Below are positions 3-8,693 of a stretch of 29,537 nucleotides of DNA, in pieces. A program made the translations under genes and the position numbers. The DNA comes from an uncultured Cellvibrionales bacterium. GTDB lineage: Bacteria; Pseudomonadota; Gammaproteobacteria; Pseudomonadales; JAHEGP01. A model generated the notes under the pieces. That model was not told the DNA's origin and did no database searches. It worked only from the letters and a program-made list of their open reading frames with translations. The stretch covers positions 1 to 29,537 of the forward strand of contig CBDUUA010000001.1 of assembly GCA_965370135.1 (NCBI GenBank), given 5' to 3'. Position 1 is the stretch's first letter. The number at the start of each line of letters is the position of its first letter.

Positions 3-425
3 CTACTGCAGGGTAAAGCCAGCTATGTCCACCTGTCGGCGATTAGCTGCGTGGATTGGATTGAAGATGACGAGTTCGAGCTGGTCTACCACGTCGTCTC
101 CTATGAGACCCATTCGCTGGTTTCGGCGCACACCCGTATCGCGCGGGACCCCGGCAGGTATCTCTCGGTGTATGACCTCTACACCCCCGCCGCTTTTTTT
201 GAGCGCGATATTCATGAGATGTTCGGTGTCTTTTTCGAGGGTAGCCCGGACATGGAGAAGTTCATTCTTACCGAGTGGGACGGCCCGCCACCGATGCGCA
301 AGGATTTCGATTCCGAAGCGTTCGTAAACCAGACCTTCCAGTGGGAGGAATACCATCCCCAGTGGCTCAGGGATATTGAGGCAGAAGGCGGTGGCATTAC
401 CACCCGGCCGGAGGACGTGCGCTGA
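3..425 (+). CDS. NuoC-like subunit (complex I 30 kDa family; MbxK/MbsK-like), 5'-truncated by the window edge
   Basis: The frame is open from base 3 (LLQGKASYVHLSAISCVDWIEDDEFELVYHV), so the gene starts before the window. It has NuoC-family motifs 'FERDIHEMFGVFFEG' and 'PPMRKDF'. The stop overlaps the next ATG (TGATG, 423-427). Confidence 0.88.
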   Translation, partial: LLQGKASYVHLSAISCVDWIEDDEFELVYHVVSYETHSLVSAHTRIARDPGRYLSVYDLYTPAAFFERDIHEMFGVFFEGSPDMEKFILTEWDGPPPMRKDFDSEAFVNQTFQWEEYHPQWLRDIEAEGGGITTRPEDVR

Positions 426-1567
426 TGCGACCCGAAAACTACGAGGCAACCCGGCAGCCGCCCAGCAATGAGTACGAGCTGAATTTTGGCCCCAACCATC
501 CCGGCATCGAGGGCAACTATGCCTTTAAGGTCAAACTCAACGGCGATATAGTCACCGAGGCCAGGGCGGACGCCGGTTATCTGCACCGGGGTTTCGAGAA
601 GTTGATGGAGGGGCGGCTGTGGATCCAGAATATCGCCTTGGTACCTCGCATCTGTGTGCCGGATCCGGTACCGATGGAGGTCTGTTACTCCCTGGCCATC
701 GAGGAGCTTTGCGGCCTAGAAGTGCCCAAGCGCGCACAGTGGCTTCGCGTCATGCAACTGGAGATGTCGCGGCTGGCGGCCCATTTATTTGCCTTCGGCG
801 GGCACGCGGCCACTACCGGTATGTATACGCCGAGCTTCTGGGGTGTTGCCGATAGAGACCTCATCCTGGATCGCTTTGAAGAGCTTACCGGAGGGCGGGT
901 TTACAGTATCTACAATATTCCGGGGGGCGTGCGCCGGGATATGCCTGCGGGTTTTCTGGATCGGCTGGGCAGCCTGCTCGATTACCTGGATTCGCGGCTG
1001 CCGGATTACGACAATCTGTTTTTTCGCAATCAGGTCTTTATCAAGCGTGCCCGGGATGTGGGCACCCTGAGCCAGGAGCAGGCCCTGAAGTGGGGTGTCA
1101 CCGGCCCCAATCTCCGGGCCACCGGATTGGAATTTGATGTGCGCCGGGATGATCCCTATCTGGTCTATGACGAGATCGAATTTGATATTGCCACCCAAAG
1201 CGCCGGCGATGCGCTGGCGCGAAACCTGGTGCGCCGCAGCGAGTTACAGCAGAGCATTCGCATCCTGCGCCAGGTGATTGAGCAACTGCCATCCGTGAAG
1301 GGGCCGGTGCGCTGCCCGATTCCCAACCCGCTGGCCTGGAATGTTCCCACCGGCGAGGCGTATACGCGGGTGGAATCATCCAAGGGTGAATTGGCCTATT
1401 ACGTGGTCTCCACCGGCGGCGACAAGCCCTACCGGGTTCATGTCAGGGGGCCGTCGAGTATGCATGCGGTACAAGTATTGGAGAAGCTGGCAGTTGGCTG
1501 CCGCTTGGAGGATGTCGCGCAAATCATGTTTTCTCTCGATGCCTGTCCGCCGGAGGTCGATCGCTGA
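425..1567 (+). CDS. NuoD-like / hydrogenase large-subunit-fold protein (complex I 49 kDa family), MbxL/MbsL-like
   Basis: Motifs 'LNFGPNHP', 'GYLHRGFEKL', 'FEELTGGR', 'GPNLRATG', 'RVESSKGEL' and 'RGPS'. It retains C77 (RICVPD) and C374 (SLDACPPEVDR). TGATG coupling at both ends. Confidence 0.92.
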   Translation: MRPENYEATRQPPSNEYELNFGPNHPGIEGNYAFKVKLNGDIVTEARADAGYLHRGFEKLMEGRLWIQNIALVPRICVPDPVPMEVCYSLAIEELCGLEVPKRAQWLRVMQLEMSRLAAHLFAFGGHAATTGMYTPSFWGVADRDLILDRFEELTGGRVYSIYNIPGGVRRDMPAGFLDRLGSLLDYLDSRLPDYDNLFFRNQVFIKRARDVGTLSQEQALKWGVTGPNLRATGLEFDVRRDDPYLVYDEIEFDIATQSAGDALARNLVRRSELQQSIRILRQVIEQLPSVKGPVRCPIPNPLAWNVPTGEAYTRVESSKGELAYYVVSTGGDKPYRVHVRGPSSMHAVQVLEKLAVGCRLEDVAQIMFSLDACPPEVDR

Positions 1568-3405
1568 TGTCGGATATTACCCACGAGGATAAAGGCAGTA
1601 TCCTGGGGCCTCTCAAGAGCCTGCGTTTTTTTTCTCGCAAGCCTGTTACCGAGCCATTGGAGCCGCGGGTTGCGGCTGATAACTACCGGGGCTTCCACGT
1701 CAACGATTGGGATGCCTGTATTGGCTGCAGTACCTGCCAGAAGGTGTGTGACAATGCCGCCATCACCATGGTCAAGATTCCCGAATTGCCCGAGGATCCG
1801 CTCGCAGGTATCCGCAACGAGCGCCCGGCGATAGATTATGGCCGCTGCTGCTGGTGTGGGCTGTGTGTGGATATTTGTCCTACCGGCTCGATCTCGCTAA
1901 CCCAGGAGTATGTGCACACCTGCCGCGAGGATGAACTCGACAGCTATTTTATCCTGCCCGACTCCAAAGGCATGCACAATACGCCATTTCCCAAGGGCTG
2001 GGCCAAGACCGAGGATGCCGATCTTATCGACCTCGAGCGCCAGCCCATGGCCGAGATGGATCCGGTCAGCCGCAGTGACAATTTTGATGAGATCGTCGAT
2101 GGCTTTACCCCGCAGGAGGCCATTATCGAGGCGTCGCGCTGTGTGCAGTGCGGTATGTGTTACGACGCCTGCCCGACCCATATGCATGCGCCGGAGTATA
2201 TCCGCGCCATCTGGGAGGGTGATGCCGAGGAAGCCGTGCGCCAGATGTACCGCAGCAATCCTTTCTCCCATGTGTGTGGTCGCGTCTGCACCCACCGCTG
2301 TGAGACCGCCTGCTCGATTGGTACTCGGGGCGAGCCTGTCGCCATACGCTGGTTGAAGCGCTATGCCATGGATGCCGTGCCCGATGAGCGGGTCAGGGAG
2401 ATCGCCGCCGAGGGCAAAGCCGATTTTATCAGCGGTAAAAAAATTGCCATCATCGGCGCCGGCCCCGCCGGTCTCACCGCCGCCTTTGATCTGGTAAAAA
2501 AAGGGCATGAGGTAACGGTCTACGAGGCGCTGGACAAACCCGGGGGCATGACCCGCTACGGTATTCCCGAATATCGAATGCCCTACGATCGCCTGGATGC
2601 CGATGTTGGCGTGATTGTCTCACTGGGAGTGGATATCCGTTACAACGTTCGTATTGGCACCGATGTCAGTATGGACGAGCTTGAAAATGAGTTCGATGCC
2701 GTACTGGTGGCCATTGGCATGCAGGTGGGTCGCTCCACTCGCATTCCCGGTTCTGATCACGAGCAGGTTCGATCATCGGTGGAACTGTTGCGCATGATTA
2801 CGGCGGGTGAGGCTTTCGATGTGCCTGAATCCGTGGTGGTGATCGGCGGTGGCAATGTGGCCATGGATATTGGGCGCAGTCTGGCGCGCATGCAGAAAAT
2901 TCGCTATGGCAAGGTCGGCATGACGCTGGCGGCACTGGAAGATTTCGATCACTTTTTAGCCGACCCGGAAGAACTCAAAGAGGCGCGGGAGGAGGGGATC
3001 GAAATCTACGACAGCCGCGGCCCCAGGGAGTGTGTCATCGATGAAAACGGCGGTTTGAAGGGGCTGACAACACTGGGGGTGAAGTCTATCTTTGATGAGG
3101 ATGGCCGCTTTGCACCGAGTTACGATGACAGCGACGAGCAGATGCATCATGCCGATATGGTGGTTGAGTCCATCGGCCAGATGAGCGATATCTCGCTCTT
3201 TGGTGAAGCCCTTACCGAAATGCTTGAATGGAACCGTGGCCGTTTGCAGGTCGATGACGAGGGGCGCAGCTCAGTGTCCTGGTTGTGGTCCGCAGGGGAT
3301 ATGGTGAATGGCCCGGATGTGGTAACAGCGGTGGCCGATGGGCATCGCGTCGCGGACAGCATCGAGGCCTATTTGAACAATGCCGGGAGTGACCGTCATG
3401 TCTGA
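1567..3405 (+). CDS. Fusion of a NuoI-like 2x[4Fe-4S] domain and a GltD/SudA-like FAD/NAD(P)H oxidoreductase
   Basis: N-terminal 'KPVTEP...NYRGFH' plus CIGCSTCQKVC and CCWCGLCVDICP. Then the GltD Fe-S domain (RCVQCGMCYDACP, CGRVCTHRCETAC), the FAD motif IIGAGPAG, the NAD(P) motif VIGGGNVAMD, and C-terminal 'SAGDMVNGP..V..AVADG'. Confidence 0.9.
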   Translation: MSDITHEDKGSILGPLKSLRFFSRKPVTEPLEPRVAADNYRGFHVNDWDACIGCSTCQKVCDNAAITMVKIPELPEDPLAGIRNERPAIDYGRCCWCGLCVDICPTGSISLTQEYVHTCREDELDSYFILPDSKGMHNTPFPKGWAKTEDADLIDLERQPMAEMDPVSRSDNFDEIVDGFTPQEAIIEASRCVQCGMCYDACPTHMHAPEYIRAIWEGDAEEAVRQMYRSNPFSHVCGRVCTHRCETACSIGTRGEPVAIRWLKRYAMDAVPDERVREIAAEGKADFISGKKIAIIGAGPAGLTAAFDLVKKGHEVTVYEALDKPGGMTRYGIPEYRMPYDRLDADVGVIVSLGVDIRYNVRIGTDVSMDELENEFDAVLVAIGMQVGRSTRIPGSDHEQVRSSVELLRMITAGEAFDVPESVVVIGGGNVAMDIGRSLARMQKIRYGKVGMTLAALEDFDHFLADPEELKEAREEGIEIYDSRGPRECVIDENGGLKGLTTLGVKSIFDEDGRFAPSYDDSDEQMHHADMVVESIGQMSDISLFGEALTEMLEWNRGRLQVDDEGRSSVSWLWSAGDMVNGPDVVTAVADGHRVADSIEAYLNNAGSDRHV

Positions 3406-3961
3406 TCCAGTTGAAGGCAAAGTAGTTAAAGGCAAAGTAGCTGAAGGCCAGGCAGTTGAAGGCCATAGTGATTCCTACAAACGTATCAAATCGAAAAAGA
3501 GCCTCGGGGAGATACTTGAAGTCGCTACCAGCTTCGAGCAAAAGGCCTTTGAGTTTTACACCGACTTGATACCGAAAGTCAGCAAGAATCTGCGCTGGCT
3601 GGCGGAGGAATTGGCCGAGGAGGAGAAGGAACATTACGATTTATTCCGCCGACTCGCGGAAGATCCCTCCATTGAAGACCAGATTACGCAGCAGATTCAA
3701 ATACCGGTAGAGGATCGCCGCTTTTCGGACTATATTCAGCTGCCTGACCTGGGTGAAAAGCCCGACGATCAAACCATTTTACAGTACGCCATGGGCCGTG
3801 AAGATGCCGCGATGAAACAATACCGCGAGCTTGCCAATTCAACCCAGCCGGGAGCGATTCACGACCTGTTCGAGTTTCTTGCCAACGAGGAAACCAAACA
3901 CAAGCAGGAACTTGAAAAGCTCTACTATGAGCTTATTCACAGCGGTGGCCCGGGGAATTAA
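3398..3961 (+). CDS. Ferritin-like di-iron protein (rubrerythrin/erythrin family, no rubredoxin domain)
   Basis: Two E...EExxH helix pairs (SFEQKA...EEEKEH; GREDAA...NEETKH). The ATG at 3398 is preferred over 3380 because GGGAG lies at 3385-3389 and it overlaps the upstream stop by 8 nt. Confidence 0.85.
   Translation: MSDPVEGKVVKGKVAEGQAVEGHSDSYKRIKSKKSLGEILEVATSFEQKAFEFYTDLIPKVSKNLRWLAEELAEEEKEHYDLFRRLAEDPSIEDQITQQIQIPVEDRRFSDYIQLPDLGEKPDDQTILQYAMGREDAAMKQYRELANSTQPGAIHDLFEFLANEETKHKQELEKLYYELIHSGGPGN
3410..3466 (+). repeat. Imperfect 15-nt tandem repeat (~4 units) in the 5' end of the ferritin-like gene
   Basis: GTTGAAGGCAAAGTA / GTTAAAGGCAAAGTA / GCTGAAGGCCAGGCA / GTTGAAGGCCAT, encoding VEGKV VKGKV AEGQA VEGH. 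Confidence 0.85.
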
Positions 3962-4094
3962 AGCGGCTTTTTGATCGATTGAAAAAGTTAGTACAGCGAT
4001 GCTGGCCAATAAGCTTACTGTCTGAGATGCCGATAAAAAAAGAGGGGGCGGTATGGCATTTGCTGATTACCCACAAACCTCAGCCAAGCAAAGT

Positions 4095-4156
4095 GGCCGA
4101 ATAAATTCGGCCCTACAGCAGGGTGGGCGGAGTTGTAGGGTCGAATTTATTCGACC
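4095..4156. repeat. REP doublet (REPIN-like): inverted pair of 23-nt GTAG-type palindromes
   Basis: GGCCGAATAAATTCGGCCCTACA (4095-4117) and TGTAGGGTCGAATTTATTCGACC (4134-4156) are reverse complements except at 2 compensatory positions. The spacer is 16 nt. Confidence 0.8.
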
Positions 4157-4218
4157 AAAGTCATCTCTGGGAAGAACTCCGTCGATACCGTATCGGTTGC
4201 TTACATTGGCTGAGCTTT

Positions 4219-5299: not shown

Positions 5300-6370
5300 A
5301 TGAACGTTAGGATCGATAAAATCAGGCTAAAAGCCAGTCACCAAACGCCTTTATTGTTGCTCGACCTGTTGATGATGGCGCTTATCCTGATCAATCTCGG
5401 CTGGTTGGCGTTTGATGCCTTATTTTCCAGCGAGTTGCTGCGGCAGGGCTTGTATCGGGTGTTTCCCCGTTTCACAACCTACTATGGGGCTCAGATACAC
5501 CCGAACTTCATTTATTACGATCTATATTTTGTGTACATATTTTTAACGGAACTTTCTGTCCGGTGGCTGATAGCGTTAAAGCGGCACACCTATCATCGTT
5601 GGTGGTTTTATCCATTTATTCATTGGTACGACGTACTGGGTTGTATTCCTGTCGGCTCTTTCCGGTGGTTGCGCCTGCTGCGTGTTTTCTCTATTTTTTA
5701 TCGGCTGGAAAGAAATAATATCATCGACATCTCGGGTACTCCGCCCGTGCGCTTTGTGATCAAGTATGTGAACGTGGTGATGGAAGAAATATCCAATCGT
5801 GTCGTGGTCAACGTGCTCACCAGTGTCCAGGATGAAATCAGCGAAGGCACTCCGGTTGTCAACAATATCATTGATCAGGTTGTCAGGCCCAGAATACCCG
5901 AAGTCACAGACTGGCTCATTGCTCGGCTTAGTGAACTGTCGGGTAAAGCCTACGAGAGCAAAAAGGAGGAATTGCGGGTTTATATCGATAAGGCCGTGTT
6001 GGATGCCTTCGCGCGCAATGACGGGGTAGCAGACTTGCAGCGGCTACCTCTGGTGGGCGATTCCGTCTCGAAGATTGTGGAGGAAGCTGTCGGTCAGTTG
6101 ATTTATGACCTTACCGAATATATTGTCGGTGACGTCACTGAACATATGGTCGGCGACGTTACTAACGTGGATGCCGATGCGCTGATCAGGGATTTAACAG
6201 AAACACTATCCGAGAAAATGATGGCGCCACCGCATAAGTTCAGGGAGGCCAGCCGGGATATGGCGATTGAGACGCTGGAGGTTGTTAAAGACCAGGCAAA
6301 AGTCCAAAAATGGAAGCTGGCGGAGGAGGCGGAACGCATTGAACGGCGGTCAGAAGTCCCTTCCGGGTAA
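5300..6370 (+). CDS. Ion-transporter-family membrane protein: voltage-sensor-like S1-S4 domain plus soluble helical C-terminal domain
   Basis: Hydrophobic helices with an S2 'IFLTE', an S3 'HWYDVLGCIP' and an S4 'FRWLRLLRVFSIFYRL'. No pore-loop signature seen. Confidence 0.75.
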   Translation: MNVRIDKIRLKASHQTPLLLLDLLMMALILINLGWLAFDALFSSELLRQGLYRVFPRFTTYYGAQIHPNFIYYDLYFVYIFLTELSVRWLIALKRHTYHRWWFYPFIHWYDVLGCIPVGSFRWLRLLRVFSIFYRLERNNIIDISGTPPVRFVIKYVNVVMEEISNRVVVNVLTSVQDEISEGTPVVNNIIDQVVRPRIPEVTDWLIARLSELSGKAYESKKEELRVYIDKAVLDAFARNDGVADLQRLPLVGDSVSKIVEEAVGQLIYDLTEYIVGDVTEHMVGDVTNVDADALIRDLTETLSEKMMAPPHKFREASRDMAIETLEVVKDQAKVQKWKLAEEAERIERRSEVPSG

Positions 6371-7390
6371 TGCTCTTGTGCCGCGAATGCGTGTTTTTTT
6401 GAGTACTCTCAGAAATGGGGAGGAGGGTCGCAATTGCGCCACCGCGGGTAAGTTGTCGGTAATGTCTACTTTTACCTTGTCGCTAGTCGATATGTTGTCG
6501 CTATAGGTGAACCGCCAGTCTACTTGTCCAATCTGTGTGGTGCCCTCCGGGTTTGCACCAATTTCAATTCTCAGGGCGACACCGTAAAGAAACTGTTCCA
6601 TATTGGCTGCGATACAAAAATCACCCAGACTATAGGCGAGCAGTTTGTTCGCGTGGGCAGTGGCGAAGCTTGTCACCGGCTGGGGGCAATGACTGTGATG
6701 GCCTACAAGTGCATCAAATTGCGCTGACAGCCGAGCTCCCTCACTAATCGTTTCCGGCCTTGGGTAGAGTTCATATTCGTAGCCCCAATGGGTGAAAAGA
6801 ATATTGAACCGATTTCGGTCGATATGGGCTGCTGCATCCTTATTGTAGGAAATGTAGTTACAGGGGTGATTGGACCAGTGAGAGCTGGCTATGATTCGAA
6901 TATCCTCGCCAATATCGCAGTAAGGATTTACTGCGGTTCCGAAGGTGTGAAATCCGCGCTCTTCGAGTAGATTGTTGGATTGCGTCCAAATCTCGTAACC
7001 AAAATCCCCCGCATGGTTGTTCGCCAGCCCGAGGTAGGTTCTATCCGGCGGAAAAAGATCGGCCAGGGCGTCGAGAACCTGCAGGCGATGCCGTTGACCC
7101 CTGGCAGGGCTGCGTGTGTCGGTGATTGTGCCCTCGAAGTTGCCTACCAGATAATCGCAACCCCGAACAAATTCTTTAACTCCAGGTCCTATTTCCAGGG
7201 TTTTATTTCCTGCGCTCATGATATCGTCGAGAAAGGCGATTCGAACCCTGGGGACGATTTTGATATTGAGCTGAAGGCACTTCGGGCTATGACTTACCAG
7301 CCCTTTGTGCTTTTCATTGAGCCCGAATTGCTTGCGTTTTAGGGAGCAGAGCGTTTCAACGAGTGGATAGGGGGAATGCTTGACTTTCAT
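6350..7390 (-). CDS. CapA family (PGA_cap) metallophosphoesterase-fold protein
   Basis: Motifs 'AFLDDIM', 'VGNFEG', 'LANNHAGDFG', 'THWGYEY', 'LVGHHSHCPQ' and 'AYSLGDF'. Confidence 0.82.
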   Translation of the reverse strand: MKVKHSPYPLVETLCSLKRKQFGLNEKHKGLVSHSPKCLQLNIKIVPRVRIAFLDDIMSAGNKTLEIGPGVKEFVRGCDYLVGNFEGTITDTRSPARGQRHRLQVLDALADLFPPDRTYLGLANNHAGDFGYEIWTQSNNLLEERGFHTFGTAVNPYCDIGEDIRIIASSHWSNHPCNYISYNKDAAAHIDRNRFNILFTHWGYEYELYPRPETISEGARLSAQFDALVGHHSHCPQPVTSFATAHANKLLAYSLGDFCIAANMEQFLYGVALRIEIGANPEGTTQIGQVDWRFTYSDNISTSDKVKVDITDNLPAVAQLRPSSPFLRVLKKTRIRGTRALPGRDF

Positions 7391-7514
7391 TATTGATCCA
7401 AAGTAAAACGGTACGGTGGGGAATGCGCAGTGCGAACCTTACATAACTGTAGCAATATCACTTTTCGATTTCATTTAATTTTACTGGAAACAATTACGTC
7501 ACGAGGAACTCCCA

Positions 7515-7880
7515 ATGATACTTATTCGCTTTATGTTGATGGCTTTGTTTTTTTCGAGCTTGCCGGTACACGCAGTTGTCGCTACTGATGACACCGTTAT
7601 CTGGATTGATGTGCGTTCAGTCGAGGAATACGATGCCGGTCATATAGAGGGCCACCCCAATATCCCGCATGAGCAGATTGGCCAGTCTATTAGTGAGATA
7701 ACAACGGATAAATCCGCGCCAATTCGAGTGTACTGTCGCTCGGGACGGCGCTCCGGGCTGGCGCAGCAGACATTGCAGGCTATGGGTTATACCAATGTCG
7801 TCAATATGGGTGGCTATGAAGCGGTAGCGGCAGAGCTTGAGGCTGAAGCCCCAGCTGAAACAGAAGCGCTAGCTCAATAG
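7515..7880 (+). CDS. pspE: Exported single-domain rhodanese (PspE-like sulfurtransferase)
   Basis: Signal-peptide-like N-terminus ending in VHA, 'WIDVRSVEEYDAGHIEG', active loop CRSGRRS and 'NMGG'. RBS GAGGA upstream. Confidence 0.85.
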   Translation: MILIRFMLMALFFSSLPVHAVVATDDTVIWIDVRSVEEYDAGHIEGHPNIPHEQIGQSISEITTDKSAPIRVYCRSGRRSGLAQQTLQAMGYTNVVNMGGYEAVAAELEAEAPAETEALAQ

Positions 7881-7910
7881 TGAACCTGTTGACACTATAA
7901 ACCGGGCAGA

Positions 7911-8693
7911 TCAGGCCTTACCAAGGCAGCGCTGGTAGGCTTTTACGGTCTCACGCAAGCCGCGCTCGATACAATCGACGGTAAAGGCATGGCCGATGCT
8001 GACCTCGAGTAAATTGGGGATTGCCTCGGCAAAGGGGCTCAGGTTGTGCAGGTTGAGGTCGTGGCCGGCATTGACACCCAGACCCACATCGCGCGCAATC
8101 ATGGCTGCCCCGCGAAAGCGCGCCAATGCCTGCTGCCATCCCTTGCCCTGGTCACAAGCCTCGGCATAAGGCCCGGTATACAGTTCGATGCGATCCGCAC
8201 CCAGTTGCCCTGCCAGTCGTATGTGCTTTTCTACGGGATCCATAAACAGGCTCACGCGAATGCCGCTGGCTTGCAGGCGCTCAATAAGGGGCGCCAGCCG
8301 CTCGCCATCGAGTTCCAGGTCGAAGCCATGATCCGAGGTGAGTTGGGTATTGCCGTCCGGTACCAGGGTGCATTGGGCCGGCTTGATATCCAGCACGATA
8401 TCCATAAATCCGGGGTAGTCGCAAACACCGCTGCGGCTGCTCGCCATGGCCGGGGCAAAGGGGTTGCCTTCGATATTAAATTCCACCGTGAGCATCGCCG
8501 CCAGTTCGAAGCAATCCTGCACCCTGATATGGCGTTGATCCGGTCGCGGGTGCACGGTAATGCCATCGGCTCCTGCATCAATGCACTGCTGTGCATGGTG
8601 GGATACCGAGGGGTACTCGGTGTCTCGTGAATTGCGGATAAGGGCAATTTTGTTCAGGTTGATGCTGAGCGCGGTCATGGTGCTGTCGGTCAT
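7911..8693 (-). CDS. pdxJ: Pyridoxine 5'-phosphate synthase
   Basis: 'LSINLNKIALIRNSR', 'GITVHPRPDQRHI', 'EFNIEGNP', 'IELYTGPY', 'VNAGHDLN' and 'EVSIGHA'. ATGA overlap with the upstream PPIase stop. Confidence 0.95.
   Translation of the reverse strand: MTDSTMTALSINLNKIALIRNSRDTEYPSVSHHAQQCIDAGADGITVHPRPDQRHIRVQDCFELAAMLTVEFNIEGNPFAPAMASSRSGVCDYPGFMDIVLDIKPAQCTLVPDGNTQLTSDHGFDLELDGERLAPLIERLQASGIRVSLFMDPVEKHIRLAGQLGADRIELYTGPYAEACDQGKGWQQALARFRGAAMIARDVGLGVNAGHDLNLHNLSPFAEAIPNLLEVSIGHAFTVDCIERGLRETVKAYQRCLGKA

What the first reader, a model, noticed from the sequence alone, without database searches (positions are those of the whole stretch)
3..3405. MBS/MBX-type (sulfane-reductase-like) complex I homolog in a gammaproteobacterial chromosome
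Seen in the sequence: three translationally coupled genes (TGATG overlaps) in the order NuoC-like, NuoD-like, NuoI-like. The NuoD-like subunit has RICVPD (C77, 653-655) and SLDACPPEVDR (C374, 1544-1546). So only the first Cys of each NiFe motif (RxCxxC, DPCxxC) is kept, and the second is replaced by D or E. It also lacks the complex I quinone-site residues: GPNHPGIEG instead of GPQHPSTHG, and no RLDY Tyr. Established: Pyrococcus MbsL (MbxL) keeps two of the four NiFe cysteines, has no NiFe centre and is part of a ferredoxin:polysulfide reductase. Its operon ends J-K-L-N, whereas in nuo operons D is followed by E-F-G. Inference: this is neither complex I nor a hydrogenase, but the tail of an ion-pumping MBS-like complex in a lineage where I do not know of one being characterised. 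This is my best candidate for an undescribed system in the window.
Basis: partly seen in the sequence, partly recalled or inferred. Interest (0 to 1): 0.88.

Follow-up and report, generated by a model that had tools for sequence, protein, structure and literature searches.

The report
Tail of bacterial Mbx/MBS-type complex
These genes are the last part of an operon for a membrane ion pump related to the archaeal sulfur-reducing MBS complex, carrying its own NADH-type flavoprotein; the type is widespread and was described from genomes in 2015, but its reaction has never been measured.

Summary
Window 3-3405 carries three translationally coupled genes: NuoC-like, NuoD-like and NuoI-like. The NuoD-like protein keeps C77 and C374, has Asp/Glu at the other two NiFe-ligand positions, and lacks the complex I quinone His/Tyr.

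All three match P. furiosus MBS (PDB 6u8y, chains K, L, N) far better than complex I or hydrogenases. In a tree the NuoD-like protein sits in a well supported 2-Cys clade with Thermotogota Mbx, apart from canonical NuoD, FpoD and 4-Cys hydrogenases.

The window starts at a contig end. Relatives 70-89% identical carry the full 14-gene operon: Mrp-like genes, two antiporter-like genes, then NuoH-B-C-D-I and a rubrerythrin-like gene. A second fragment (MbsH'-like) lies on another contig of this genome.

- The third gene is an MbsN-like part fused to an NfnB/SudA-like FAD flavoprotein that is probably NADH-specific.
- The system is not undescribed. Degli Esposti 2015 describes this operon type, and a 2024 Endoriftia study names it Mrp-Mbx.
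- It occurs in at least 128 species genomes, and this scan has reported it on several other genomes.

The most likely function is an ion-translocating NADH:sulfane-sulfur oxidoreductase, but the substrate is untested. It is a new member of a known kind. What is unusual here is that six congeners lack it.

The parts
3..425 (+). mbsK/NuoC-like gene. The contig end cuts its 5' end. The 140 residues present align to residues 44-183 of the 183-aa homologue in L006.
   Evidence: Pfam Complex1_30kDa, E=2e-24. Best PDB match is 6u8y_K (MbsK) at 72.8 bits; the next is complex I NUGM at 47.7 bits. It is 76% identical to the L006 NuoC-like protein.
425..1567 (+). mbsL/NuoD-like gene, 380 aa. It keeps C77 and C374, has D80 and E377 in place of the other two NiFe ligands, and has E29 and V78 in place of the quinone His/Tyr.
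   Evidence: PDB bit scores: 6u8y_L 390.6, Nqo4 265, MbhL 137, HycE 98.5. C77, C374, R75 and V78 are invariant in the 74-77 loci aligned at each position. It lies in the 2-Cys Mbx clade, support 99/99*.
1567..1962 (+). N-terminal MbsN/NuoI-like part of the fusion protein (about residues 1-131). It has two 4-Cys motifs for two [4Fe-4S] clusters: C51/54/57/61 and C94/97/100/104.
   Evidence: Best PDB match is 6u8y_N at 82.5 bits; NuoI/NdhI score 46-48 bits and MbhN 40.6 bits. All eight Cys are invariant in 83-84 loci.
2014..3405 (+). C-terminal NfnB/SudA/GltD-type flavoprotein part (about residues 150-612). It has two more 4-Cys motifs (C192/195/198/202 and C237/241/245/249), an FAD Rossmann fold (GAGPAG) and a second nucleotide fold. 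At E458 it carries an acidic residue, and A456-L457 occupy the place of the Arg-Arg of NfnB.
   Evidence: Pfam Fer4_20 and Pyr_redox_2. NCBIfam PRK13984 matches over the full length at 806 bits, below its 946-bit cut-off. PDB matches to NfnB/NfnI-type chains score 231-255 bits, against 165 bits for GltD. All Cys are invariant, and position 458 is E in 75 and D in 6 of 84 loci.
3398..3961 (+). Rubrerythrin/erythrin-like di-iron protein gene, the conserved last gene of the operon. It overlaps the fusion gene by 8 nt (ATGTCTGA).
   Evidence: Pfam Rubrerythrin, E=9e-13. The overlap is visible in the sequence. It follows the fusion gene in almost every locus whose sequence reaches that far, and also in Thermosipho.

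Best explanation
Window 3-3961 is the 3' end of a 14-gene bacterial Mbx/MBS-type operon. The contig end cuts off the rest.

The encoded complex has a complex-I-like peripheral arm made of MbsK-, MbsL- and MbsJ-like subunits. This arm sits on an MbsM (NuoH-like) anchor and an Mrp-type membrane arm with two antiporter-like pumps.

Electrons enter or leave through an FAD/NADH site that is fused to the MbsN-like subunit. They pass four [4Fe-4S] clusters of the fusion protein and reach the proximal cluster of the MbsJ-like subunit. That cluster faces a chamber with neither a NiFe centre nor a quinone site.

The most likely reaction is the one shown for P. furiosus MBS: reduction of sulfane sulfur (polysulfide) at the open iron of the proximal cluster, coupled to H+/Na+ translocation. 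The donor here would be NADH instead of ferredoxin. The NADH and polysulfide couples lie only about 50-60 mV apart, so the enzyme should run close to equilibrium and may be reversible.

Shown here: subunit homologies, gene order, invariant cluster ligands, and loss of the NiFe and quinone residues. Inferred: the NADH preference, the sulfur substrate, the ion coupling and the direction.

My odds: identity as an Mbx/MBS-type complex, about 0.95. NADH-linked sulfane-sulfur chemistry, about 0.45-0.5.
For: - All four peripheral subunits hit P. furiosus MBS (6u8y) first and by a wide margin: L 390 bits against 265, N 82 against 48, K 73 against 48, and J (from relative L006) 225 against 115.
- The J alignment is ungapped over 168 residues and keeps the CTGCG motif of MbsJ C25/C28. 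The counterparts of MbsJ C25, C28, C93 and C123 are invariant in 66-69 loci. In MBS this motif leaves the proximal cluster with three Cys ligands and makes it catalytic (PMC7684303).
- The full gene order MnhE-MrpF-MnhG-MbhD-MnhB-NuoK-M-M-NuoH-B-C-D-I::NfnB-Rbr is seen in L006-L008, in about 50 further loci, and identically in Thermosipho africanus.
- Own-genome contig C515 encodes an MbsH'-like protein 73% identical to that of L006.
- The tree places the protein in the 2-Cys clade (99/99*) with Thermotogota, apart from NuoD, FpoD and the 4-Cys hydrogenases.
- T. maritima mbxA, from a 13-subunit MBX unit that the paper describes as an MBS homologue, rises 4.4-fold with S0 (PMC9431562).
- Carriers among Proteobacteria are mostly sulfur oxidisers that handle or store S0.
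- Endoriftia's Mrp-Mbx is co-expressed with the rTCA cycle and hydrogenases, not with the CBB cycle (PMC11636981).
Against: - No enzyme of this fused bacterial type has been assayed in any paper I found.
- With NADH as donor the driving force is only about 10 kJ per 2 e-. With ferredoxin, MBS has 41 kJ (PMC8165549). That is little for a complex with two pumps.
- This genome (84% complete) shows no SoxB, DsrA or RuBisCO, so a sulfur link for this particular host is not evident.
- The MbsJ-, MbsM- and Mrp-like genes of this genome are not assembled. Their features are read from relatives.
- The conserved rubrerythrin-like gene has no role in this model.
- MbsL itself could not be placed in my tree.
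Confidence: 0.55

Rival explanations
1. It is an ion-translocating ferredoxin:NAD(P)+ oxidoreductase, like Rnf. This is the older Mbx model and the one Degli Esposti proposed. It could run backwards, using NADH and the membrane potential to make reduced ferredoxin for rTCA enzymes or nitrogenase.
For: PMC4758237 proposes exactly this for the gltD-containing mbx-like operon. In Endoriftia the complex is co-expressed with the ferredoxin-requiring rTCA cycle. The NfnB-type module normally connects a flavin to ferredoxin through its two [4Fe-4S] clusters (established knowledge of NfnAB; PDB matches). Many carriers are autotrophs or diazotrophs.
Against: A ferredoxin-to-FAD path inside the peripheral arm would bypass the MbsJ/L/M chamber, which is the energy-coupling site in MBH, MBS and complex I (PMC7684303). 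Yet the MbsJ catalytic motif and the L-subunit residues are strictly conserved. The archaeal enzyme once thought to be an FNOR turned out to be a sulfane reductase. No ferredoxin gene lies in the operon.
Confidence: 0.2
2. The architecture is the same, but the terminal substrate in the chamber is something other than sulfane sulfur and not yet identified, for example an organic persulfide/disulfide or another hydrophobic acceptor. A related idea is that the rubrerythrin-like protein takes the electrons, giving NADH peroxidase or oxidase activity.
For: This host shows no obvious sulfur-oxidation genes. The family also occurs in Fe-oxidising Gallionellaceae, Magnetospira, Myxococcota and Clostridia. 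The rubrerythrin-like gene is conserved and translationally coupled.
Against: The MBS-type catalytic motif is conserved without gaps. T. maritima mbx responds to S0. A peroxidase role would not need twelve membrane and coupling subunits.
Confidence: 0.15
3. It is a second, divergent complex I (an NADH:quinone oxidoreductase paralogue), as the automatic annotation 'NADH-quinone oxidoreductase subunit D' implies.
For: NCBIfam NF004739 (NuoD equivalog) scores 443 bits, above its 360-bit cut-off. Public records name the relatives NuoD.
Against: The quinone ligands are absent: E29 and V78 stand where Nqo4 has H38 and Y87, and both are near-invariant in the family. The protein is separated from the NuoD clade, which holds this genome's own NuoCD. 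The membrane arm in relatives is Mrp-type, not NuoA/J/L/M/N-type. The NuoB-like subunit has CTGC instead of the tandem CC of complex I.
Confidence: 0.03
4. It is a group 4 membrane-bound [NiFe] hydrogenase.
For: There is distant homology to MbhL and HycE (137 and 98 bits), and the Mrp-linked architecture is shared with MBH.
Against: Two of the four NiFe cysteine ligands are Asp/Glu in every locus examined. A 100/100* branch separates all 4-Cys sequences from this clade.
Confidence: 0.01

Closest known systems
Pyrococcus furiosus MBS (formerly Mbx), membrane-bound sulfane sulfur reductase, PDB 6U8Y (Yu et al. 2020, PMC7684303)
   Same: The K, L, N and (in relatives) J subunits are each the best PDB match. 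The gene order is the same, with an Mrp-like module and two antiporter-like subunits. The L subunit keeps the counterparts of C85 and C385 and lacks the quinone His/Tyr. The J subunit has the same CTGCG motif and length.
   Different: MbsN stands alone there and takes electrons from ferredoxin. Here it is fused to an NfnB/SudA-type FAD flavoprotein that is probably NADH-specific, and a rubrerythrin-like gene is appended. The host is bacterial and mesophilic. The activity has not been tested.
[quoted passage not shown]
   Same: The Thermosipho locus has the same 14-gene layout, including the NuoI::GltD/NfnB fusion and the terminal rubrerythrin-like gene. The 2015 paper describes the gltD-like flavoprotein and terminal rubrerythrin for this operon type. 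The NuoD-like proteins fall in the same clade. I file the window's genes under this kind.
   Different: The phylum and lifestyle differ. The Thermotogota L subunit has H instead of E at the Nqo4-H38 position and G instead of D at position 372. Only the last genes are assembled here.
'Putative Mrp-Mbx complex' of Candidatus Endoriftia persephone (Mitchell et al. 2024, PMC11636981)
   Same: It is a gammaproteobacterial carrier. Related tubeworm symbionts (Lamellibrachia, Escarpia) have NuoD-like proteins 81-82% identical to the window's, with the same operon.
   Different: That organism is a sulfur-oxidising autotroph with rTCA and CBB cycles. In this genome I found no SoxB, DsrA or RuBisCO.
Respiratory complex I (NuoC/D/I; T. 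thermophilus Nqo5/4/9)
   Same: The peripheral-arm subunits have the same fold family and share the 4Fe-4S chain in NuoI.
   Different: There are no quinone ligands, no NuoEFG, an Mrp-type membrane arm, and a separate clade. A canonical nuoCD-E-F is present elsewhere in this genome.
NfnB / SudA (large subunit of NADH-dependent ferredoxin:NADP+ oxidoreductase; PDB 4YLF_B, 5JCA_L, 5VJ7_A)
   Same: The C-terminal 460 residues align end to end at 231-240 bits. They share the two [4Fe-4S] motifs, the FAD fold and the second nucleotide fold.
   Different: There is no NfnA/SudB partner in the operon. The first cluster motif is a plain CxxCxxCxxxCP. The Arg-Arg that sits at the NADPH site in NfnB is Ala-Leu here, followed by Glu. 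The module is fused to MbsN.

Membership tests
MBS/Mbx-type respiratory complex (P. furiosus MBS as type) | Operon combining Mrp-like small subunits, two antiporter-like subunits (H, H'), and M-J-K-L-N in that order | tested here: met
   The order is complete in relatives whose NuoD-like protein is 70-89% identical. In this genome only K-L-N (the window) and an H'-like fragment on C515 are assembled. The rest is lost to contig breaks.
MBS/Mbx-type respiratory complex (P. furiosus MBS as type) | L subunit keeps two of the four NiFe cysteines and lacks the complex I quinone His/Tyr | tested here: met
   C77 and C374 align with the Cys of the RICVPE and NCPPD motifs of MbsL, which PMC7684303 names C85 and C385. 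E29 and V78 stand at the Nqo4 H38 and Y87 positions. These residues are invariant across 74-77 loci.
MBS/Mbx-type respiratory complex (P. furiosus MBS as type) | J subunit with a shortened CxxC motif that leaves the proximal [4Fe-4S] cluster with three Cys ligands | tested here: inconclusive
   By sequence this is met in relatives: the alignment to MbsJ is ungapped, with CTGCG, and the four Cys are invariant. The J gene of this genome is not assembled, and cluster coordination cannot be read from sequence alone.
MBS/Mbx-type respiratory complex (P. furiosus MBS as type) | Stand-alone MbsN that receives electrons from ferredoxin | tested here: not met
   The MbsN-like part (residues 1-131) is fused to an NfnB/SudA-like flavoprotein. 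This places the window in the bacterial variant, not the archaeal type.
MBS/Mbx-type respiratory complex (P. furiosus MBS as type) | Polysulfide/DMTS reductase activity coupled to ion translocation | not testable with these tools
   This needs biochemistry. I found no published assay of the fused bacterial form.
Bacterial mbx-like operon (Degli Esposti 2015) | A gltD-related flavoprotein at the NuoI position and a terminal rubrerythrin gene | tested here: met
   The window has the fusion gene at 1567-3405 and the rubrerythrin-like gene at 3398-3961. The description is in PMC4758237, and the same layout is seen in Thermosipho.
Respiratory complex I, subunit NuoD | Quinone-headgroup ligands (Nqo4 H38, Y87) and placement within the NuoD clade | tested here: not met
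   E29 and V78 stand in their place. The protein lies outside the NuoD clade, which holds this genome's own NuoCD and that of E. coli.
Group 4 membrane-bound [NiFe] hydrogenase, large subunit | Four cysteine ligands (RxCGxC ... DPCxxC) | tested here: not met
   Only two Cys are present, and D80 and E377 replace the others. A 100/100* branch separates the 4-Cys sequences.

The most novel reading that the evidence does not exclude
In proteobacterial carriers the complex may not be a sulfur-reducing pump. It may work as a near-equilibrium, reversible coupling device. One option is that the membrane potential drives electrons from sulfide/polysulfide directly to NAD+, a short cut for reverse electron flow that bypasses the quinone pool. 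Another option is that the NfnB-type flavin splits NADH electrons between the iron-sulfur chain and the rubrerythrin-like protein. Nothing in my data excludes either option, and nothing specifically supports them. The points in their favour are the small NADH/polysulfide potential gap, the strict conservation of the rubrerythrin-like gene, and the enrichment in lithoautotrophs.
Probability: 0.15. Interest if true: 0.7.

Novelty: new member of a known kind. Interest (0 to 1): 0.3.

Why it matters
The complex belongs to the evolutionary series hydrogenase (MBH), then MBS, then complex I. The bacterial NADH-linked form is widespread in sulfur- and iron-oxidising Proteobacteria, tubeworm symbionts and Thermotogota. 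Public annotation usually calls its subunits 'NADH-quinone oxidoreductase', which overstates complex I content in genome-based metabolic models.

Its reaction has not been measured. Finding out what it does would fill a gap in models of energy conservation for sediment bacteria and symbionts. The candidates are sulfur respiration on stored S0, reverse electron flow, or ferredoxin/NADH balancing.

For this window the result is mainly a correct annotation. It also shows that the operon is an accessory trait in this genus.

Tried and rejected
- I searched this genome for the missing upstream genes. Pfam Oxidored_q6 found only the HoxY-like small subunit of a Hox-type hydrogenase on C406, not an MbsJ-like gene. 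A tblastn search with all 15 proteins of L006 found only the window itself, C515 (H'-like) and canonical nuo genes.
- I could not put MbsL, MbhL or EchE in the tree, because no tool gave their sequences as references and I did not type them in. PDB bit scores stand in for this. E. coli HycE, unnamed 4-Cys representatives, E. coli NuoCD and Methanosarcina FpoD served as anchors.
- Looking up the clusters of the top representatives gave almost no names.
- A literature search on 'Ehr' was swamped by unrelated uses of the word.
- The sequencing-run search listed only DNA runs from marine sediment and cold seep; I did not run a separate kind=rna search, so there is no expression evidence. Logan contigs are short (0.2-2 kb) and could not extend the contig.
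- Rejected: a decayed or remnant operon. The ORFs are intact and coupled, and the truncation coincides with base 1 of the contig.
- Rejected: mis-binning as the reason congeners lack the operon. The operon sits on the same 29.5-kb contig as a PdxJ gene that is 70-81% identical in all six congeners.
- No complex prediction or structure prediction was run. Sequence similarity to solved MBS chains already settles the fold.


Full report
**What is in the window.** The window is a whole contig (C1) of a 519-contig genome that is 84% complete. At its start lie three same-strand genes:
- 3-425, open at the 5' end;
- 425-1567;
- 1567-3405.

The stop and start codons overlap as TGATG at 423-427 and at 1565-1569. 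A fourth gene at 3398-3961 overlaps the third by 8 nt. Pfam assigns them Complex1_30kDa, Complex1_49kDa, a protein combining 4Fe-4S dicluster, Fer4_20 and Pyr_redox_2 domains, and Rubrerythrin.

**Which family.** Against all PDB chains, each protein matches the P. furiosus membrane-bound sulfane reductase MBS (6u8y) best.

| Protein | Best MBS chain (bits) | Other matches (bits) |
|---|---|---|
| NuoD-like | 6u8y_L, 390.6, one full-length stretch | Nqo4 265; MbhL 137; HycE 98.5 |
| NuoC-like | 6u8y_K, 72.8 | next best 47.7 |
| First 131 residues of the third protein | 6u8y_N, 82.5 | NuoI/NdhI 46-48; MbhN 40.6 |

In the alignment to MbsL, C77 and C374 align with the Cys of the RICVPE and NCPPD motifs of MbsL, which the MBS paper names C85 and C385. 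MbsL reads RICVPE and NCPPD where the window reads RICVPD and ACPPE. Against Nqo4, the quinone ligands H38 and Y87 correspond to E29 and V78.

Residues 150-612 of the third protein align end to end with NfnB/NfnI-type flavoproteins (5vj7_A, 4ylf_B, 5jca_L) at 231-240 bits. The match to glutamate synthase small subunits is weaker, at 165 bits. NCBIfam PRK13984 covers the whole fusion at 806 bits, below its cut-off of 946. The fusion as such is therefore already a catalogued family.

**The missing upstream part.** The NuoC-like ORF lacks about 43 N-terminal residues because the contig ends there. Three relatives carry the full operon in front of the same three genes plus the rubrerythrin-like gene. 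They are one metagenome contig (86% identical NuoD-like protein) and two copies of the locus from Lamellibrachia tubeworm endosymbiont assemblies (81%). The order is MnhE, MrpF, MnhG, MbhD, MnhB, NuoK/MnhC-like, two Proton_antipo_M proteins (about 485 and 625 aa), NuoH-like, NuoB-like.

A scan of one genome per species found 128 loci encoding a relative of the fusion protein. Among the 80 kept are:
- Sedimenticola, Thiogranum and Lamprocystis purpurea DSM 4197;
- Escarpia and Lamellibrachia symbionts;
- Thiolapillus, Thiobacillus and Parasulfuritortus cantonensis;
- Gallionellaceae, Thiomargarita, Ectothiorhodospiraceae, Magnetospira and Hyphomicrobiales.

Nearly all loci with enough upstream sequence show the same gene order. 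Thermosipho africanus has the identical 14-gene layout including the fusion and the rubrerythrin-like gene. A clostridial relative (Helicovermis) has an unfused 162-aa MbsN-like gene followed by rnf.

In the window's own genome, contig C515 (1714 bp) is filled by an MbsH'-like ORF 73% identical to that of L006. A canonical nuoCD-nuoE-nuoF, with GPNHPSVHG and RIDY, lies on C195. A Hox-type NiFe hydrogenase lies on C406.

**Phylogeny.** I aligned the window's protein with:
- ten named proteobacterial relatives;
- 136 cluster representatives from an exhaustive HMMER search;
- this genome's canonical NuoCD;
- E. coli NuoCD and HycE;
- Methanosarcina FpoD.

The quick tree of all 151 rows and a careful tree of 71 rows with eight named bacterial Mbx proteins added agree on these points:
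- A 100/100* branch separates all 4-Cys sequences from the rest.
- Canonical NuoD forms its own clade (89/87). It holds this genome's NuoCD and that of E. coli.
- FpoD is separate.
- The window's protein sits in a 99/99* clade of 20 two-Cys sequences. This clade includes Thermosipho, Fervidobacterium, WOR-3, Myxococcota and Clostridia. Its nearest relative there is a Sedimenticola MAG at 89% identity.

MbsL itself is not in the tree because I had no reference id for it. The PDB scores stand in for this.

**Conserved features.** Across the fetched loci:
- NuoD-like: C77, C374, R75 and V78 are invariant. Positions 80 and 377 are always acidic.
- NuoB-like: the four Cys that align with MbsJ C25, C28, C93 and C123 are invariant. 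The alignment to MbsJ is ungapped and carries the same CTGCG.
- Fusion protein: all 16 Cys of its four 4-Cys motifs are invariant.
- Position 458 is E in 75 and D in 6 of 84 loci, with A456-L457 standing where NfnB has Arg-Arg. This suggests NADH rather than NADPH, by the usual Rossmann-fold rule. That is my inference.

The MBS paper states that catalysis occurs at the three-Cys proximal cluster of MbsJ. It also states that the MbsL C85A/C385A mutant stays active (PMC7684303).

**How it most likely works.** The electron path would run from NADH to FAD, then through two clusters of the NfnB-like part and two clusters of the MbsN-like part, to the proximal cluster of the J subunit. The substrate would sit in the L/J/M chamber, and turnover there would drive the two antiporter-like pumps and the Mrp-like module.

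The substrate is most likely sulfane sulfur, for three reasons:
- The MBS catalytic motif is conserved.
- T. maritima mbxA rises 4.4-fold with S0 (PMC9431562).
- Proteobacterial carriers are mostly sulfur bacteria.

From textbook potentials, NAD+/NADH lies at about -320 mV and polysulfide/sulfide at about -260 to -270 mV. That leaves only about 10 kJ per electron pair. Ferredoxin-driven MBS has 41 kJ (PMC8165549). The enzyme should therefore be close to reversible, and the direction in vivo is open.

The main rival is a ferredoxin:NAD(P)+ oxidoreductase, as proposed in PMC4758237. It does not use the coupling site that is so well conserved, so I rank it lower. It would, however, fit the co-expression with the rTCA cycle in Endoriftia (PMC11636981).

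[quoted passage not shown] It also notes the terminal rubrerythrin and the vestigial Cys in the NuoD homologue. PMC11636981 (2024) lists a 'putative Mrp-Mbx complex' of unknown direction in a gammaproteobacterial symbiont. I found no biochemical study of the fused form. Earlier follow-ups in this scan reached the same reading on other genomes. My own tests agree with them.

**What is particular here.** The six other species of this genus carry the PdxJ gene of this contig at 70-81% identity. None has the Mbx NuoD-like gene, and only one has any NuoD homologue. None of 40 relatives in the genus and order has the fusion protein at E<=1e-100. The operon is therefore an accessory trait here, probably acquired horizontally. 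Its closest relative in the tree is a Sedimenticola MAG, which belongs to the sulfur-oxidiser-rich carrier group.

This genome shows no SoxB, DsrA or RuBisCO, though it is incomplete. The sequence is found in marine sediment and cold-seep metagenomes.

**Verdict.** This is a new member of a known, uncharacterised kind, and interest is low to moderate.

Noticed in passing
window 4094-4157: The short repeat (REP doublet) here has a summed contig depth of 60-276 in four metagenome runs, against about 1-10 for the sequence immediately around it. Many different flanks join onto it. Contigs in two runs join 4053 directly to 4232, skipping 178 bases, so a variant without the repeat exists.
   Followed up: partly
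own genome contig C406 (locus L004 1-1989, minus strand): A Hox-type cytoplasmic NiFe hydrogenase is present: a small subunit, and a large subunit with RLCGICPVSH and DPCLSCATH. This genome therefore has a true hydrogenase besides the Mbx-like complex.
   Followed up: no
genus-level genomes G001-G006: Five of the six congeners, each at least 90% complete, have no NuoD homologue at all with this query. Complex I itself therefore appears to be accessory in this genus.
   Followed up: partly
loci L072, L078, L082, L085 (Thiotrichaceae, Ca. Venteria, Ca. Thiomargarita, a Guaymas MAG): The fusion gene and the rubrerythrin-like gene stand without the other Mbx genes in the 10 kb upstream. In these large sulfur bacteria the pair may be separated from the complex or used on its own.
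   Followed up: no
locus L030 about 5400-8400 (Lamellibrachia barhami endosymbiont scaffold): About 2.4 kb lie between the NuoB-like and NuoC-like genes, which are adjacent in every other locus. This may be an insertion. In L008 an IS66 element lies just downstream of the rubrerythrin-like gene.
   Followed up: no
locus L092 12011-17062 (Helicovermis profundi): A complete rnf operon follows directly after an Mbx operon that has an unfused MbsN-like gene. Two ferredoxin-linked ion pumps sit side by side.
   Followed up: no
window 7515-7880: A small ORF (121 aa) looks like a single-domain rhodanese (motif CRSGRRS) with a hydrophobic N-terminus, 3.5 kb downstream of the operon. I read the domain by eye and did not scan this ORF. 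It is not conserved next to the operon in relatives.
   Followed up: no
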